Part shown: positions 1 to 5,972 of the stretch, one piece after another
Layout: each line of letters begins with the position of its first letter
How positions within the stretch are numbered: the stretch's first letter is position 1
NCBI GenBank assembly: GCA_963742815.1
Contig: CAVUNJ010000008.1
Coordinates: 84,925-148,924, forward strand
Length of the DNA stretch: 64,000 nt
Direction of reading: 5' to 3'
Origin: an uncultured Actinomycetota bacterium
GTDB taxonomy: Bacteria > Actinomycetota > Actinomycetes > Propionibacteriales > Nocardioidaceae
Translations under genes and position numbers: made by a program
The notes under the pieces: model-generated
Told to the model about the DNA's origin: nothing
What the model saw: only the letters and a program-made list of their open reading frames with translations
Database searches by the model: none

Positions 1-823
1 GGGCACGGCCAACCCCTACGCCGGTCAGGACGTGTCCAGCCCGTGGCCGGCCGTGGGCATCGGCCGCGAGGCCGAGCTCCGCCGACGGGCCGCGGAGCTC
101 GTGCGCGCGACCGACCCCGAAGCCGATGACGGGGGCCTCGACCTCGTCGAGACCGCCCGCGTGGGGGACTGGGACGCGGAGCTCGACCGGCTCCTGGCAG
201 AAGCACGCGCGGATCGATCGGGCACGGTCGAGGTGCCGCTTCCCACAAGCCTCTCGGCGACTGCGATGGCCCGCCTGCGTGACGACCCCGAGCAGCTCGC
301 GAGCGAACTGGCACGACCGATGCCGCGCAAGCCGTCGCCGGCGGCCCGGTTCGGGACCCGGTTCCACGCCTGGGTCGAGGCGCGTTTCGGGCAGCAGGCG
401 CTGCTCGACCCCGACGACCTGCCGGGCCGGGGCGACCTTGGCATCGACGACGAGGACGAGCTGAAGGAGCTGATCGCCCGGTTCGAGGCCGGCCCCTTCG
501 CCGAGCTGGTTCCCGTCGCGGTGGAGCCGCCGTTCGCGCTCGTCCTGGCGGGCCAGGTGGTGCGGGGCCGGATCGACGCGGTGTACGCCGAACCGGACGG
601 TGGCTGGCTGGTCGTGGACTGGAAGACGAACAAGCAGCAGACGGCCGACGCCCTCCAGCTGGCGATCTACCGGGTCGCGTGGGCCGACCTGATGGGCGTG
701 CCCCTCGAGCGGGTTCGTGCCGCGTTCCACTACGTGCGCTCGGGCGAGACCATCGCGATCGACGATCTGGCCGATCGTCAAGGGTTGGAGCAAATCCTGC
801 GGTTATCGACCCCTCCGGTGTAG
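1..823 (+). CDS. adnB: 3' part of AdnB-like ATP-dependent helicase/nuclease (RecB-type PD-(D/E)XK nuclease domain); 5' end outside the window
   Basis: The frame is open from the window edge. RGRIDAVY...VVDWKT...QLAIY is a RecB-family nuclease motif, with no Fe-S cysteines. Its position upstream of nudC matches the actinobacterial adnA-adnB-nudC order. Confidence 0.7.
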   Translation, partial: GTANPYAGQDVSSPWPAVGIGREAELRRRAAELVRATDPEADDGGLDLVETARVGDWDAELDRLLAEARADRSGTVEVPLPTSLSATAMARLRDDPEQLASELARPMPRKPSPAARFGTRFHAWVEARFGQQALLDPDDLPGRGDLGIDDEDELKELIARFEAGPFAELVPVAVEPPFALVLAGQVVRGRIDAVYAEPDGGWLVVDWKTNKQQTADALQLAIYRVAWADLMGVPLERVRAAFHYVRSGETIAIDDLADRQGLEQILRLSTPPV

Positions 824-925
824 ACCAGCAACGGGCATTAGGCCGCTTACCTGTCTAAATGGGATGTACCGGGCAAAGATTGCTCTTGTGACACGGCCAC
901 AAGGCGGTGCGAGGGGGAAACCAAG

Positions 926-1186
926 ATGTTCGGATCCACGATGATGTTGACGATCGGCCAGGCACTCGACCGTGCCAAGGCCGAAGGCATGAACGTCCGG
1001 ATGCGCGTCGAGGGCGAGTGGATCACCGGCCAGATCATCAACAGCGACGGCCACGGTGTGGCCGTGCTGGAGAACAACGGCGACATCTGCGTCATCCGTC
1101 AGGACGCGATCAACCTCGTGCGACTGCCTTCCCGCGCCAGCGGCCCGAACGTGCCCTCCCAGCAGACCGTCTTCGAGCACGCCTGA
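926..1186 (+). CDS. 86-aa small protein with an Sm/Hfq-like sequence pattern
   Basis: ATG preceded by GAGGGGGAA. The pattern helix + V-x-V...G..ITGQI...D...VL....VIRQDAINLV aligns by eye with the Hfq Sm1/Sm2 motifs. Confidence 0.6.
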   Translation: MFGSTMMLTIGQALDRAKAEGMNVRMRVEGEWITGQIINSDGHGVAVLENNGDICVIRQDAINLVRLPSRASGPNVPSQQTVFEHA

Positions 1187-1191
1187 GCGGA

Positions 1192-1914
1192 TCAGCCCAG
1201 GTCCGCCTCAGCAAGCGCGGCGGTGAGCGCGATGTCGACCATCGGGCCGAACGTCTGCTCCCGCTCCTGAGAGGTGGTCTCCTCGCCGGTGACGATCTGG
1301 TCACTCACGGTGCAGATCGCCAGCGCCTGACGGCCGTACGACGCAGCCAGCGTGTAGAGCCCGCAGGCCTCCATCTCCACGGCGAGCACCCCATGCTCGA
1401 CCAACGGCTTGATCAGCTCCGGACGCGGTGAGTAGAACGAGTCGGTCGAGAAGATCAGCCCTACGTGTGTGGTGATGTCGTCTCGTGCGGTGGCTGCCTC
1501 ATGGGCGGCTCGCAGCAGGCCGAAGTCGGCCACCGCCGCGTAGTCGAACCCGTGGAACCGGAGCCGGTTCGTGCTCGCATCCGTGCAGGCACCCGAGGCG
1601 ATCACCACGTCCCGCAACGCAAGGCGCTCGGTGAGCGCCCCGCAGGAGCCGACCCGCACGACACGGCGTACGTCGTAGTCCTGGAACAGCTCGTTGACGT
1701 AGATCGACATCGAGGGCTGGCCCATGCCGGATCCCTGGACCGAAACCGGGTGCCCGTGCCAGGAGCCGGTGAAGCCGTACATCCCCCGGACCTCGCTGTA
1801 GCAGGTCGCGTCGTCGAGGAAGTTCTCGGCGATCCATCTGGCCCGCAGCGGGTCTCCCGGGAGCAGCACGGTGGGTGCGATCTTGCCCGGCTGGGCGCCG
1901 ATGTGGGTGCTCAT
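1192..1914 (-). CDS. deoD: Purine nucleoside phosphorylase DeoD
   Basis: VLLPGDPLRA, GSGMGQPS, RVGSCGAL, VEMEA, ICTVSD motifs. Confidence 0.95.
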   Translation of the reverse strand: MSTHIGAQPGKIAPTVLLPGDPLRARWIAENFLDDATCYSEVRGMYGFTGSWHGHPVSVQGSGMGQPSMSIYVNELFQDYDVRRVVRVGSCGALTERLALRDVVIASGACTDASTNRLRFHGFDYAAVADFGLLRAAHEAATARDDITTHVGLIFSTDSFYSPRPELIKPLVEHGVLAVEMEACGLYTLAASYGRQALAICTVSDQIVTGEETTSQEREQTFGPMVDIALTAALAEADLG

Positions 1915-2024
1915 GCCGCATCACACTAGGGGGTGATCGACGCAGACCCCTGCGAGCTAACGGAGATCACCCCTAGGACTAACCTCGCGAGCATGGACCC
2001 GAGTAACACCCCCCACGAGGAGCG

Positions 2025-2954: not shown

Positions 2955-2961
2955 GGCCACC

Positions 2962-3360
2962 GTGCAGCTGGTGATCGAGGGCTGGAACCTCCCGGGCCGC
3001 AGCTGCGGCTCCTACCGCGACATCCACGTGGGGACACAGCTCCGCCGAGATCCGGCGGACCTTGTCCCGGGCGATGCCGCAACTGCTCGGTGGGTGGTCG
3101 ACGTCGAGGTACTCGAGCGAGACGGTGAGCGCGACTTCCGCGGCCCCGCTGTCCAGGGCAGACGTGGCGAACGGTTCGTCTACCTGACCTGGGGCGAGCT
3201 CAGGGGCGGAACCTTCACGATGTTCCGGCGGGCGAAGCTGATGCTGCTCGACGTACCCGATCCCGATCGGCCGAGCGTCACGGCCCGGGTCGACCTGACC
3301 GACGAGTGCGGAATGCCACGCTGCGCGCGACTCCGGGCACCCGCGCTTGCCTGGCCCTGA
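2962..3360 (+). CDS. DUF5990-like hypothetical protein
   Basis: GTG at 2962; DFRGPAVQGRRGERFVYLTWG and MFRRAKL resemble this actinobacterial family. Confidence 0.65.
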   Translation: MQLVIEGWNLPGRSCGSYRDIHVGTQLRRDPADLVPGDAATARWVVDVEVLERDGERDFRGPAVQGRRGERFVYLTWGELRGGTFTMFRRAKLMLLDVPDPDRPSVTARVDLTDECGMPRCARLRAPALAWP

Positions 3361-3818: not shown

Positions 3819-5972
3819 ATGCACGCCGATGAGCTGCTGAGCGCGCTCGACCCGGAGCAGCGCGAGGTTGCGCTGGCCCTCCGCGGCCCGGTCCGGGTGC
3901 TCGCCGGTGCAGGCACGGGCAAGACCCGTGCCATCACCCACCGGATCGCCTACGGCGTGGCCTCGGGCGTCTACAACCCGATGGAAGTGCTGGCTGTGAC
4001 CTTCACCACTCGCGCCGCAGGGGAGATGCGCACCCGGTTGCGCTCGATGGGCGCCTCGGCCGTGCAGGCACGCACCTTCCACTCCGCTGCCCTGCGCCAG
4101 GTGCGCTACTTCTGGCCAAAGGTCTACGGCGGCCAGCCTCCTGAGCTCACCGCATCGAAGATCCCGATCGTGGCCGGTGCCGCGCGCCGCAACCGGGTCG
4201 AGGTCAACCAGGCGACGTTGCGCGACGTGGCCAGCGAGATCGAGTGGGCCAAGGTGAGCAACGTCCGCCCCGACGACTACGAGCGCCTCGCGCCCCGACG
4301 TGGCCGCGAGGTCAGTGGTCTCGACGCAGCCACCGTCGCCCACGTCTTCGGGAGCTACGAGGAGCTCAAGCGCGACCAGGGGCGGATGGACATGGAGGAC
4401 GTGCTGCTCATCGGCGCTGCGCTGCTCAGCGAGGACGAGCGCGTCGCCGCGGAGGTGCGGCGCCAATACAAGTGGTTCACGGTTGATGAGTTCCAGGACG
4501 TAAGCCCGATCCAGTCGGCGCTGCTCGACCTGTGGCTCGGGGGACGCGACGAGATCTGCGTGGTCGGTGACCCCGCCCAGACCATCTACTCCTTCGCCGG
4601 TGCGCGAGCCAACTACCTGACCGAGTTCCCGGCCAAGTTCGACGGCACGACGAGCGTCGAGCTGGTGCGCAACTACCGATCCACGCCGCAGGTCATCGGG
4701 GCGGCCAACGCGCTTCTGAAGGGCTCCGGTTCCTCCAGCGTGCTGCTCCGCTCCCAGCTCGGGGCCGGCGCCGAGGTCACCTGGCGCGAAGCACCCGACG
4801 AAGTGGCCGAGGCCGAGGCCGTGGCCGGCGAGATCAAGCGACTGCAGCAGCAGGGCGTGCCGTTGCGCGAGATGGCGGTGCTGTTCCGCATCAACGCGCA
4901 GTCGGAGTCCTTCGAGGAGGCCCTGACTGCTCGGGGCATCGCGTACGTCGTTCGTGGCGCCGCGCGGTTCTTCGAGCGCCAGGAGGTGCGTCAGGCCCTG
5001 GCCCTGATGCGTGGCCAGCTGCGCGCTGGCCCAGGAATCGGTGCAGGAATCGGTGCAGGAATCGGTGCAGGAATCGGTGCAGGAATCGGTGCAGAAAATG
5101 CCGTAGACGGAGGTGTGGAGGAGGCTGACGAGCTCGTCGACCAGGTCCGCGCGGTGCTGAGCGGCATGGGCTGGTCAGCTGATGCCCCGACCACCCGCGG
5201 CCAGGCCCGCGACCGATGGGAGTCCTTGCAGGCGCTGGTCTCCCAGGCCACTGACCACACGGCGACGGAGGTGGCCGCCGAACGGACACCCACGCTGGCC
5301 GGCTTCGTTGCCGAGCTCGACCGCCGCGCGCACGAGCAGCATGCGCCGGTCGCAGAGGGGGTGACGCTGGCGACGTTGCATGCCGCCAAGGGCCTCGAGT
5401 GGGATGCGGTCTTCCTGTGCGGCGTGCAGGAGGGGTCGATGCCGATCACCTACGCCGACACTCCGGCAGCCGTCGAGGAGGAGCGTCGCCTGCTCTACGT
5501 CGGAGTGACGCGCGCGCGAGAGCACCTCTGGGTCTCGTGGGCCCTGGCCCGCAACCCGGGCGGTCAGGCCCGCCGCCGTCCGTCGCGCTTCCTGGCCGGC
5601 CTCCGACCCGAGTCGGCCACCGATCGTGTCGACGCGGCCGGTCCTGCCCGAGGCGCCCGCCGCCGCGGCAAGAAGGCCGCCGTGTGCAAGCAGTGCCAGA
5701 AGCCGCTCGCGAGCTCGCGCGAGCGCAACCGCGGCTACTGTCAGGACTGCCCGGTGCCCTACGACGAGGACCTGTTCGAGTTGCTGCGGTCCTGGCGCAA
5801 GGAGCAGGCCGAGGCGCAGAGTGTCCCCGCATTCGTGGTGTTCTCCGATGCGACTCTCGAGGCGCTCGCCGAGGTCAAGCCGACAGACCGCCGTGGCCTG
5901 CAGTCGATCAGCGGCATCGGCAAGGCCAAGCTGGACAAGTACGCCGACGAGCTGCTCTCCCTGCTCACCTGA
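3819..5972 (+). CDS. uvrD2: ATP-dependent DNA helicase UvrD2
   Basis: AGAGTGKT Walker A, VDEFQD, RNYRST, TLHAAKGLEW, EERRLLYVGVTRAR, tetracysteine CKQC...CQDC module, C-terminal HRDC domain. Confidence 0.95.
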   Translation: MHADELLSALDPEQREVALALRGPVRVLAGAGTGKTRAITHRIAYGVASGVYNPMEVLAVTFTTRAAGEMRTRLRSMGASAVQARTFHSAALRQVRYFWPKVYGGQPPELTASKIPIVAGAARRNRVEVNQATLRDVASEIEWAKVSNVRPDDYERLAPRRGREVSGLDAATVAHVFGSYEELKRDQGRMDMEDVLLIGAALLSEDERVAAEVRRQYKWFTVDEFQDVSPIQSALLDLWLGGRDEICVVGDPAQTIYSFAGARANYLTEFPAKFDGTTSVELVRNYRSTPQVIGAANALLKGSGSSSVLLRSQLGAGAEVTWREAPDEVAEAEAVAGEIKRLQQQGVPLREMAVLFRINAQSESFEEALTARGIAYVVRGAARFFERQEVRQALALMRGQLRAGPGIGAGIGAGIGAGIGAGIGAENAVDGGVEEADELVDQVRAVLSGMGWSADAPTTRGQARDRWESLQALVSQATDHTATEVAAERTPTLAGFVAELDRRAHEQHAPVAEGVTLATLHAAKGLEWDAVFLCGVQEGSMPITYADTPAAVEEERRLLYVGVTRAREHLWVSWALARNPGGQARRRPSRFLAGLRPESATDRVDAAGPARGARRRGKKAAVCKQCQKPLASSRERNRGYCQDCPVPYDEDLFELLRSWRKEQAEAQSVPAFVVFSDATLEALAEVKPTDRRGLQSISGIGKAKLDKYADELLSLLT
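5034..5093 (+). repeat. In-frame 12-bp tandem repeat (GGAATCGGTGCA) x5 encoding (GIGA)5 inside uvrD2
   Basis: Five perfect copies at 5034, 5046, 5058, 5070 and 5082. Confidence 0.97.

What the first reader, a model, noticed from the sequence alone, without database searches (positions are those of the whole stretch)
926..1186. Hfq/LSm-like small protein in a phylum considered to lack Hfq
Seen: by-eye alignment with E. coli Hfq ([30 protein letters not shown]...MVYKHAISTVVPSR) keeps the N-terminal helix, the first strand, G-x3-GQI-x3-D, the AI-x2-V Sm2 strand and even PSR. The YKH and aromatic RNA-binding residues are replaced (IRQD). Established: Actinobacteria generally lack canonical Hfq. 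Inference: a divergent Sm-fold ring protein, possibly nucleic-acid binding, inserted with deoD into the adnB-nudC block.
Basis: partly seen in the sequence, partly recalled or inferred. Interest (0 to 1): 0.62.

Follow-up and report, generated by a model that had tools for sequence, protein, structure and literature searches.

The report
Divergent acidic Hfq-like protein, Marmoricola
A small unannotated gene just after the DNA-repair gene adnB in this soil actinobacterium encodes a real, strongly remodelled relative of the bacterial RNA chaperone Hfq, in a bacterial class said to have none, but its RNA-binding surfaces are changed and its function is untested.

Summary
The ORF at 926-1186 (+) is a real gene: GC3 is 0.90, median dN/dS is about 0.3, and one orthologue has an identical protein at dS 0.16. 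It has no Pfam or NCBIfam hit.

**Fold and homology**
- Two independent AlphaFold2 models (the window protein and a relative about 30% identical) give a helix plus five strands. For each, the listed Foldseek PDB hits (top 50) are Hfq, apart from one RimP entry.
- Sequence profiles agree. 46 of 120 family members weakly hit Pfam Hfq. hhalign gives 91% probability against Hfq and 0.3% against archaeal Sm.
- The family is about as far from canonical Hfq as the accepted cyanobacterial Hfq is.

**What is kept and what is lost**
- The Sm1 glycines and aspartate are kept.
- YKH is replaced by R-x-[D/E], the rim arginines are gone, and every family core is acidic (pI about 5, against about 10 for Hfq).

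**Distribution and context**
- The family occurs in 113 of 301 genomes of its own family (Nocardioidaceae), often as tandem pairs, and is almost absent elsewhere.
- Canonical Hfq is absent from this genome and found in 5 of 401 Actinomycetota genomes.
- The gene and deoD vary independently; they were not inserted together.

**Reading**
It is probably a ring with a conserved proximal pocket and a specialised ligand, not a general sRNA matchmaker. Ring formation and RNA binding are untested.

The parts
926..1186 (+). Gene for the 86-aa Hfq-like Sm-fold protein (stop codon included)
   Evidence: ORF listing and sequence. GC3 is 0.90. Median dN/dS is about 0.3. Homologues found. AF2 and Foldseek point to Hfq.
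911..918 (+). Shine-Dalgarno-like GAGGGGGA, 7 nt before the ATG
   Evidence: Read from the sequence. A G-rich stretch sits before the start codon in 8 aligned orthologous upstream regions. Translation start was not tested experimentally.
953..985 (+). N-terminal helix alpha1 (residues 10-20). It carries the near-invariant T9-x-G11-x-A13-L14-x-R16-A17 and lies on the predicted proximal face.
   Evidence: DSSP on the AF2 model, pLDDT about 94. Conservation in 164 family sequences. Aligned to the Hfq helix by hhalign.
992..1069 (+). Sm1 part: strands beta1-beta3 (residues 23-48) with G30, W32, G35 and D41
   Evidence: AF2 strands 23-28, 31-40 and 44-48. G30=G29, G35=G34 and D41=D40 of E. coli Hfq. 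W32 is present in 160 of 164 sequences.
1046..1057 (+). Loop 3 motif D41-G42-H43-G44. H43 sits at the position of the Hfq uridine-stacking F/Y42.
   Evidence: hhalign register. Conservation: D in 160, G in 142, H in 96 and G in 153 of 164 sequences. The role in ligand binding is inferred.
1085..1123 (+). Sm2 part: strands beta4-beta5 (residues 54-66). In Hfq this edge pairs with the next subunit.
   Evidence: AF2 strands 54-58 and 62-66. Aligned with Hfq M53-V63. Subunit pairing is inferred from Hfq and was not tested.
1097..1105 (+). Loop 5 motif R58-Q59-D60, which replaces Hfq Y55-K56-H57
   Evidence: hhalign register. R is present in 151 of 164 sequences, and position 60 is E or D in 124 of 164. 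Synechocystis Hfq has R59 at the same place.
1124..1183 (+). C-terminal tail (residues 67-86), predicted disordered. It contains LPSR and a V-P-x-Q motif typical of the adnB-linked clade.
   Evidence: pLDDT is below 50 for residues 71-86. VPxQ-like motif in 34 of 50 clade A proteins.
2..823 (+). 3' end of adnB (helicase-nuclease subunit), same direction, 102 nt upstream. This neighbour is constant for this clade.
   Evidence: ORF. An adnB end lies upstream of the Hfq-like gene in 11 relatives: within about 95-130 nt in ten, and about 1.9 kb away in G007. The adnB name rests on synteny with nudC, the glutaredoxin-like gene and uvrD2, and on my own knowledge of the mycobacterial locus.
1192..1914 (-). 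deoD-like purine nucleoside phosphorylase, convergent. Its presence varies independently of the Hfq-like gene.
   Evidence: ORF. Presence and absence patterns in relatives.

Best explanation
The gene encodes a previously unannotated, strongly diverged member of the Hfq branch of the Sm superfamily.

**Shown**
- It is a real gene under purifying selection.
- The predicted fold is one helix plus five bent strands. It superposes on Hfq crystal structures at about 1.1-1.4 A.
- Family profiles relate it specifically to Hfq. The distance is about the same as that of the accepted cyanobacterial Hfq.

**Inferred**
- Like all Hfq proteins, it assembles into a ring by beta4-beta5 edge pairing.
- The family's best-conserved residues fall in the helix, loop 3 and loop 5: T9, G11, R16, D41-G-H43-G, R58, [D/E]60 and R66. 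In Hfq these elements form the proximal face and pore. They therefore probably form one conserved pocket per subunit.
- My committed mechanism, at about 40%: this pocket holds a short single-stranded, pyrimidine-rich nucleic-acid end. RNA is most likely. H43 would stack on the base where Hfq uses F/Y42, and R58 would replace the Y55/K56 contacts.
- The rim arginine patch and K56/H57 are lost, and the core is acidic in every member. So it should not act as a general sRNA-mRNA matchmaker. It is more likely a specialised binder or adaptor.

I put the identity (Hfq-like Sm fold, homologous to Hfq) at about 0.85-0.9. The confidence given below covers the whole statement, mechanism included.
For: **Real gene:**

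**Fold**
- The AF2 core has pLDDT about 94, with H10-20 and five strands.
- The listed Foldseek PDB hits (top 50) are Hfq apart from one RimP entry at rank 41. For 3hfo_A, TM-score normalised to the target is 0.79 and rmsd is 1.2 A over 57 columns.
- A second model, of a relative 30% identical in alignment A8, has core pLDDT 96-98. It gives 99 hits at E<=1e-3, and the 50 listed are all Hfq.

**Sequence**
- The trimmed family profile hits Aquifex Hfq at E 9.6e-4, Synechocystis Hfq at 0.0045 and more than 30 distinct Hfq chains.
- 46 of 120 members hit Pfam Hfq PF17209 (best E 4.2e-5) and 14 hit Hfq_1. No other RNA-binding family ranks high.
- hhalign family against Hfq: 91.4%, E 9e-7, 54 columns.
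- hhalign family against cyanobacterial Hfq: 79.9%, E 1.4e-5.
- Yardstick, canonical against cyanobacterial Hfq: 94.9%, E 4.7e-8.
- JGI names one member 'sRNA-binding regulator protein Hfq'.

**Conserved positions** and their Hfq equivalents.

**Charge:** all 67 family cores are net negative, with median pI 4.9. The Hfq cores have pI 10.
Against: - No ring model could be made because only single chains can be folded here.
- The window protein itself has no Pfam hit to Hfq even at E<=10. All family hits are below Pfam's 27-bit cut-off.
- H43 is only moderately conserved (96 of 164), and position 59 (K56 in Hfq) is variable.
- An acidic ring is an unusual RNA binder. The closest structural relative, Synechocystis Hfq, works through a protein partner (PMC4390875) and, from my own knowledge, binds RNA weakly.
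- No conserved partner gene was found. Neighbours differ between clades.
Confidence: 0.55

Rival explanations
1. It is a protein-binding adaptor ring of the cyanobacterial-Hfq type. The ring forms, but its conserved face docks a protein partner, as Synechocystis Hfq docks PilB1. It has no direct, physiologically relevant nucleic-acid binding.
For: - Synechocystis Hfq (3hfo) is the top Foldseek hit for the window model and rank 3 for the second model.
- Both share R at the Y55 position and the V-R-x-x-A-I Sm2 form.
- Every family core is acidic, and the rim arginines and K56/H57 are lost.
- Cyanobacterial Hfq acts through the PilB1 C-terminus (PMC4390875).
- Tail motifs (VPxQ in clade A, PMPGP in part of clade B) look like short docking motifs.
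Against: - No conserved neighbour gene that could be the partner was found. Clade A sits after adnB, clade B between a dapD-side membrane protein and dapC/fdxA, and other copies lie elsewhere.
- The conserved pocket keeps His and two Arg at positions that contact RNA in Hfq.
Confidence: 0.28
2. It is a true functional Hfq equivalent. On this reading it is a general sRNA chaperone for Nocardioidaceae that has rebuilt its RNA-binding surfaces.
For: - It is homologous to Hfq in fold and profile.
- No canonical Hfq is present in the genome.
- The invariant W32 sits at the distal-face K31 position. Bona fide FKHAI-bearing Hfq domains of other Actinomycetota carry W at the same place.
Against: - The gene is present in only 113 of 301 genomes of its own family and is lost or gained between close relatives. 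That pattern is odd for a global regulator.
- The core is acidic, with no rim arginine patch and no K56/H57.
- The gene is not linked to miaA/hflX-type neighbours.
Confidence: 0.12
3. It is an Sm/SH3-like small barrel that resembles Hfq only by convergence. It could be a stand-alone WYL-like, RimP-C-like or Tudor-like domain. It would act as a monomer or dimer, for instance as an accessory of the AdnAB helicase-nuclease on single-stranded DNA.
For: - Weak Pfam hits also go to the MORC2 chromo-like domain (38 of 120), DUF6897 (17), Tudor_4 (14) and RimP_C (4).
- M. smegmatis RimP appears at rank 41 in Foldseek.
- Clade A lies downstream of adnB in the same direction in all 11 loci examined: within about 130 nt in ten, about 1.9 kb away in G007.
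- WYL domains are Sm folds common in Actinobacteria (PMC6789036).
Against: - Hfq is by far the most frequent and best-scoring family.
- No member hits WYL or LSM among the 25 commonest families.
- hhalign against archaeal Sm gives 0.3%, against 91% for Hfq.
- The N-terminal helix and the short beta3-beta4 loop are Hfq-like.
- The adnB link is confined to one clade in one genus. The larger clade B lies elsewhere.
Confidence: 0.05

Closest known systems
Cyanobacterial Hfq (Synechocystis Ssr3341, PDB 3HFO; Anabaena Asl2047, PDB 3HFN)
   Same: - It is a very divergent Hfq that standard searches miss.
- It gives the best or near-best structural match and the first PDB hit of the narrow family profile.
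- hhalign gives 79.9%.
- YKH is replaced, with R at the Y55 position in Synechocystis, and loop 3 is D-x-D-G-x-G-like.
- By my count on the 3hfo sequence, the protein is acidic.
   Different: - It belongs to a different phylum and is a separate sequence family. Neither a phmmer search with the window protein nor one with Synechocystis Hfq links the two families.
- This family has an invariant Trp on beta2 and a conserved T-x-G-x-A-L-x-R-A helix that the cyanobacterial proteins lack.
- No PilB1-type partner is evident.
Canonical bacterial Hfq (Pfam PF17209; E. coli, Aquifex 5SZD, S. aureus 1KQ1)
   Same: - It shares the fold and the helix-plus-five-strand order.
- It shares the Sm1 pattern G-x4-G-Q-I-x3-D and the Sm2 pattern A-I-x2-V.
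- The beta3-beta4 loop is short in both.
- hhalign gives 91.4%, E 9e-7.
   Different: - [YF]KH is replaced by R-x-[D/E].
- The aromatic at position 42 is replaced by His.
- The rim arginines are absent.
- Core pI is about 5 against about 10.
- All hits are below Pfam's cut-off.
- The gene is accessory and often occurs as a tandem duplicate.
Archaeal Sm-like proteins (AF-Sm1 1I4K, Mth SmAP1 1I81)
   Same: Both have the Sm fold. By eye, loop 3 reads D-x-H and loop 5 reads I-R-x-D, which resembles the Sm D-x-H-x-N and I-R-G-D uridine pocket.
   Different: The profile comparison gives no support: hhalign 0.3%. The long Sm beta3-beta4 hairpin is absent. The by-eye motif likeness is only a lead.
WYL domain of PafBC and other actinobacterial regulators (PMC6789036)
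   Same: It is an Sm-fold domain enriched in Actinobacteria. It has conserved arginines in the beta4-beta5 loop and a Trp-containing strand.
   Different: No family member hits Pfam WYL among the 25 commonest families. WYL domains are parts of larger HTH regulators, whereas this protein stands alone. All listed structure hits but one (RimP) are Hfq, and none is a WYL entry.
DUF3107, proposed in 2015 as the actinobacterial Hfq (bioRxiv 10.1101/026195)
   Same: Both address the same question, the 'missing' Hfq of Actinobacteria. Both were found through likeness to cyanobacterial Hfq.
   Different: It is a different family. DUF3107 lacks the helix-then-five-strand order according to that paper, and this protein has no DUF3107 hit. 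DUF3107 is reported from diverse actinobacterial genera, whereas this family is almost confined to Nocardioidaceae.

Membership tests
Hfq family (canonical, Pfam PF17209) | Sm fold: N-terminal helix followed by five strongly bent antiparallel strands | tested here: met
   AF2 gives H10-20 and strands 23-28, 31-40, 44-48, 54-58 and 62-66, with core pLDDT about 94. It matches Hfq crystal structures with TM-score (target) about 0.8 and rmsd 1.1-1.3 A. The result is repeated on a second family member. The structure is predicted, not solved.
Hfq family (canonical, Pfam PF17209) | Sequence match to the family model above its curated cut-off (27 bits) | tested here: not met
   The window protein has no PF17209 hit at E<=10. 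Relatives reach 14-22.6 bits, with best E 4.2e-5. Profile-profile comparison gives 91.4%, E 9e-7.
Hfq family (canonical, Pfam PF17209) | Sm1 motif: two glycines and the aspartate (G29, G34, D40 in E. coli) | tested here: met
   G30, G35 and D41 align to them. They are present in 154, 163 and 160 of 164 family sequences.
Hfq family (canonical, Pfam PF17209) | Hfq-type Sm2 motif [YF]-K-H-A-[IV] | tested here: not met
   The window has R58-Q59-D60-A61-I62. The family consensus is R-x-[E/D]-A-I.
Hfq family (canonical, Pfam PF17209) | Proximal uridine pocket Q8, F/Y42, K56, H57, and the rim patch R16/R17/R19 (residue roles are from my own knowledge of the Hfq literature) | tested here: not met
   H43 sits at position 42, Q59 at 56 and D60 at 57. 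K18, A19 and G21 sit at the rim positions, which are not conserved as basic. All family cores are net negative.
Hfq family (canonical, Pfam PF17209) | Homohexameric ring | not testable with these tools
   Only single chains can be folded here, and model coordinates are not returned.
Hfq family (canonical, Pfam PF17209) | Binds RNA and chaperones sRNA-mRNA pairing | not testable with these tools
Divergent Hfq of the cyanobacterial type (3HFO/3HFN) | Hfq fold with the YKH motif and RNA-contact residues replaced, detectable only by profiles or structure | tested here: met
   3hfo is the top Foldseek hit. hhalign gives 79.9%, E 1.4e-5. The canonical-against-cyanobacterial yardstick is 94.9%.
Divergent Hfq of the cyanobacterial type (3HFO/3HFN) | Same sequence family (orthology) and a PilB1-type partner | tested here: not met
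   A phmmer search with Synechocystis Hfq finds only 3hfo and 3hfn in the PDB. The exhaustive phmmer search with the window protein returned high-GC sequences with this family's own signature among those read, and the members traced to genomes or contigs sit in actinobacterial contexts. No pilus ATPase was seen next to any copy.
Archaeal/eukaryotic Sm-LSm (Pfam PF01423) | Profile similarity to Sm/LSm, with the long beta3-beta4 hairpin and the RG-containing Sm2 | tested here: not met
   hhalign against four archaeal Sm proteins gives 0.3%. LSM is not among the 25 commonest weak Pfam hits.
WYL domain (Pfam PF13280) | Match to the WYL model, within a larger regulator | tested here: not met
   WYL is not among the families hit by the 120 members. 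The protein is a stand-alone 86 aa.

The most novel reading that the evidence does not exclude
The Nocardioidaceae Hfq-like proteins may be working RNA-binding rings that use a rebuilt His/Arg proximal pocket and a Trp-lined distal face. Where two copies lie in tandem, they may assemble into mixed rings, as eukaryotic Sm proteins do. That would be the first Hfq-type riboregulation system in the class Actinomycetes and a second, independent remodelling of the Hfq RNA surfaces.
Probability: 0.15. Interest if true: 0.8.

Novelty: new variant of a known kind. Interest (0 to 1): 0.55.

Why it matters
Reviews and primary papers state that no Hfq homologue has been found in Actinobacteria (for example PMC6789036). 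The only earlier candidate I found, DUF3107, does not have the Hfq strand order.

Here there is a family with the full Hfq fold and detectable Hfq ancestry inside the class Actinomycetes. No Pfam or NCBIfam model covers it. It gives a concrete protein to test for RNA binding in cultivable soil genera (Marmoricola, Nocardioides).

With cyanobacterial Hfq, it is a second case showing how far the Hfq surfaces can drift. Its value is limited in two ways. It is confined to one family and missing from about 60% of that family's genomes, so it does not explain sRNA biology in Mycobacterium or Streptomyces. Its acidic surface also makes a classical chaperone role unlikely.

Tried and rejected
**Alternative identities tested and rejected**
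- Phage or plasmid origin: there were no significant PHROGs hits (E<0.001) for ten members and no tblastn hit in 72,556 plasmids. The contigs that carry relatives are ordinary chromosomal actinobacterial contexts.
- WYL domain and archaeal Sm: rejected by Pfam tallies and hhalign.
- My by-eye match of loop 3 and loop 5 to the archaeal Sm uridine pocket (D-x-H, I-R-x-D) has no profile support. I keep it only as a lead.

**Artefact hits set aside**
- The profile hits to designed 'Pizza' beta-propellers and to versicolorin reductase come from short repeated or local G-x-W-x-x-G-x-V..DG strings. No single stretch passes for Pizza.

**Searches that failed or were limited**
- The search for related loci with the wide alignments failed because there was no conserved 7-10-column stretch. 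It worked only for the narrow clade.
- The phylum-level genome search with the gappy alignment A2 scored few candidates and found almost nothing. The trimmed A4 model was used instead.
- Ten longer relatives (230-430 aa) have no Pfam domain in their extensions, so fusions give no functional clue.
- No sigma-70-like promoter or terminator was found around the gene. This is uninformative for a high-GC actinobacterium.

Full report
**1. The observation**

Window 926-1186 (+) holds an 86-codon ORF whose ATG is preceded by GAGGGGGA at 7 nt. Several lines show it is a gene.
- Third-codon-position GC is 0.90. The flanking genes have 0.86-0.89, and the overlapping ORFs in other frames have 0.55-0.81.
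- The word-indexed search found 46 clusters of relatives, 47-97% identical and all about 80-115 aa.
- The exhaustive phmmer search found 136 representatives at E<=1e-3.
- Among 28 orthologue pairs, median dN/dS is 0.30. One orthologue encodes the identical protein at dS 0.16.

The matches are G30/G29, G35-Q36-I37/G34-Q35-I36, D41/D40 and A61-I62..V65/A58-I59..V62, with I57-R58-Q59-D60 in place of V54-Y55-K56-H57. The 'PSR' likeness is one residue out of register and should be dropped.

**2. What it is: structure**

The protein has no hit in Pfam or NCBIfam.

AlphaFold2 on the 47-sequence alignment gives a confident core (pLDDT about 94 for residues 10-66). It has one helix (10-20) and five strands, followed by a disordered tail. 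Foldseek against the PDB returns Hfq entries for 49 of the 50 listed hits; rank 41 is M. smegmatis RimP. The Hfq hits come from Synechocystis, S. aureus, Listeria, Caulobacter, Aquifex, Bacillus, Thermotoga, Pseudomonas and E. coli. TM-score normalised to the target is about 0.7-0.8, and rmsd is 1.1-1.3 A over 55-57 residues.

I repeated this on a relative from another clade, P0185. It is 30% identical to the window protein in alignment A8 and is encoded on a metagenome contig. Core pLDDT is 96-98. There are 99 hits at E<=1e-3, and the 50 listed are all Hfq.

**3. What it is: sequence**

- The narrow family profile has Anabaena Hfq as its best PDB hit, at E 0.042.
- A trimmed 67-sequence domain profile (A4) hits Aquifex Hfq at 9.6e-4, Synechocystis Hfq at 0.0045 and B. 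subtilis Hfq at 0.011. In all it hits more than 30 distinct Hfq chains. The only better scores are designed repeat proteins with no single passing stretch.
- Scanning 120 members one by one against Pfam, Hfq is the commonest family (46 members, best E 4.2e-5) and Hfq_1 is fourth (14 members). WYL and LSM do not appear among the 25 commonest.
- Individual members reach 14-22.6 bits, against a cut-off of 27.
- JGI's pipeline named one member 'sRNA-binding regulator protein Hfq'.

hhalign results:

| Comparison | Probability | E-value |
|---|---|---|
| Family against a small Hfq alignment (54 columns) | 91.4% | 9e-7 |
| Family against the two cyanobacterial Hfq | 79.9% | 1.4e-5 |
| Family against archaeal Sm | 0.3% | 0.2 |
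| Yardstick: canonical against cyanobacterial Hfq | 94.9% | 4.7e-8 |
| Yardstick: Hfq against archaeal Sm | 34.8% | 4.1e-4 |

The E. coli, AF-Sm1, Mth SmAP1, Synechocystis and Anabaena sequences were each checked against PDB entries.

The family is therefore a branch of Hfq, roughly as remote as the accepted cyanobacterial Hfq. It is not a generic Sm or SH3 barrel.

**4. What has changed**

Residue roles in Hfq are taken from my own knowledge of the Hfq literature. In the hhalign register, with conservation counted over 164 sequences:
- The Sm1 glycines and aspartate are kept.
- The uridine-stacking F/Y42 is His43 (96 of 164).
- Y55 is Arg58 (151 of 164).
- K56 is variable.
- H57 is Asp or Glu (124 of 164).
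- The rim arginines R16, R17 and R19 correspond to K18, A19 and G21, which are not conserved as basic.
- K31 on the distal face is an almost invariant Trp32 (160 of 164).

Bona fide Hfq domains with FKHAI in other Actinomycetota also carry Trp at the K31 position.

All 67 family cores are net negative, with median pI 4.9. The window core has pI 5.1, whereas the E. coli core and an actinobacterial canonical Hfq core both have pI 10.0.

The best-conserved residues cluster in the helix, loop 3 and loop 5: T9, G11, R16, D41-G-H-G44, R58, D/E60 and R66. In Hfq these elements make up the proximal face and pore. I could not inspect coordinates, so this placement is inferred from the alignment.

**5. 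Distribution**

- Canonical Hfq (PF17209) is absent from the window's genome at E<=1, while the control genomes ring.
- In 401 sampled Actinomycetota genomes it passes the cut-off in 5. All five are small genomes outside this class.
- The new family is found in 20 of 37 genomes of the window's genus. It is found in none of 24 genomes from other families of the order with the narrow profile.
- With the trimmed profile it is found in 11 of 401 genomes in a class-wide sample. Besides the window's genome these are three full-length matches in the window's own family, four genomes of one other family (E 2e-7 to 7e-5), and three short partial matches in other families.
- It is found in 113 of 301 genomes of its own family, in 12 of 45 genera, and often as two copies about 450 bp apart.
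- Named records place the window's clade in Marmoricola, including the isolate Marmoricola sp. URHB0036, and in Danish soil MAGs.

**6. Context**

The window's clade (clade A, signature T-[IV]-G-[QH]-A-L-D-R-A) lies downstream of adnB, in the same direction, in all 11 loci examined. The gap is about 95-130 nt in ten of them and about 1.9 kb in G007.

Relatives without the gene show the other states of this site:
- adnB abuts deoD directly in G013, G017, G378 and G008.
- adnB abuts nudC directly in G014 and G367.
- G034 has the Hfq-like gene but no deoD.

So the two genes came and went independently in a variable spot. They were not inserted together.

The larger clade B lies elsewhere. In several genera it sits between a dapD-side membrane protein and dapC/fdxA. 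In another genus it is next to pgm. In some Marmoricola genomes it is next to a Sir2 gene and an EamA gene. No partner gene is shared by all clades.

**7. How it probably works**

Shown: a selected gene, a predicted Hfq fold and Hfq ancestry.

Inferred: ring assembly through the beta4-beta5 edges, and one conserved pocket per subunit on the proximal side.

I commit, at about 40%, to a pocket that holds a short single-stranded, pyrimidine-rich nucleic-acid end. His43 would stack on the base and Arg58 would contact it. The rim and the K56/H57 contacts that Hfq uses for sRNA-mRNA matchmaking are gone.

The main rival (about 28%) is a protein-docking ring like Synechocystis Hfq, which binds the PilB1 C-terminus (PMC4390875). 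A true general chaperone (about 12%) fits poorly with the patchy distribution and the acidic surface. Convergence from another small barrel (about 5%) is contradicted by the profile results.

**8. Novelty and earlier work**

Müller et al. state that no Hfq homologue has been identified in Actinobacteria, and they point to WYL domains as Sm folds there (PMC6789036). A 2015 preprint proposed DUF3107, a different family without the Hfq strand order (10.1101/026195). My literature searches found nothing on this family.

It agrees with what I found independently. Another note (e1-5260658) reports a different, tandem Sm-barrel protein that is widespread in actinomycetes. I did not test that one.

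**9. Limits**

- No multimer prediction was possible and no model coordinates are returned.
- All family-level Pfam hits are below the curated threshold.
- The function is inferred throughout.

Noticed in passing
window 5032-5094 (inside uvrD2, 3819-5972 +): A perfect 12-bp tandem repeat (CAGGAATCGGTG x 5.2) lies in frame and encodes (GIGA)5 in the middle of the UvrD2-like helicase. It may be a slippage-prone length-variable linker. I did not compare it with relatives.
   Followed up: partly
window 824-2024 and loci L030-L040, L056-L062: The adnB-nudC interval is a small variable spot. Between close relatives, the Hfq-like gene, deoD and a further stretch of about 2 kb between deoD and nudC are each present or absent independently.
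   Followed up: yes
L051, L052, L054 (small, low-GC Actinomycetota genomes outside the class): Canonical Hfq domains with FKHAI occur here as the C-terminal part of open frames of about 200 aa. The N-terminal region is Cys-rich (C-x2-C ... C-x2-C) with a Lys-rich linker. Trp sits at the E. coli K31 position. This may be a fused zinc-ribbon-Hfq architecture.
   Followed up: no
L063-L070, L078 and many places: Clade B genes often come as two diverged copies about 450 bp apart on the same strand. In several genera the position is conserved, between a dapD-side membrane protein and dapC/fdxA. This raises the possibility of mixed rings.
   Followed up: partly
C-terminal tails of family members (P0064, P0066-P0068, P0083, P0096 and others): A short P-M-P-G-P motif recurs near the end of otherwise unalignable tails in 15 of 140 clade B proteins. 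Clade A tails instead carry V-P-x-Q (34 of 50). These may be docking motifs.
   Followed up: partly
window 2955-3360 (+): A conserved ORF of about 133 aa lies between nudC and the glutaredoxin-like gene. It is present in most but not all relatives at 70-86% identity. I did not identify it.
   Followed up: no
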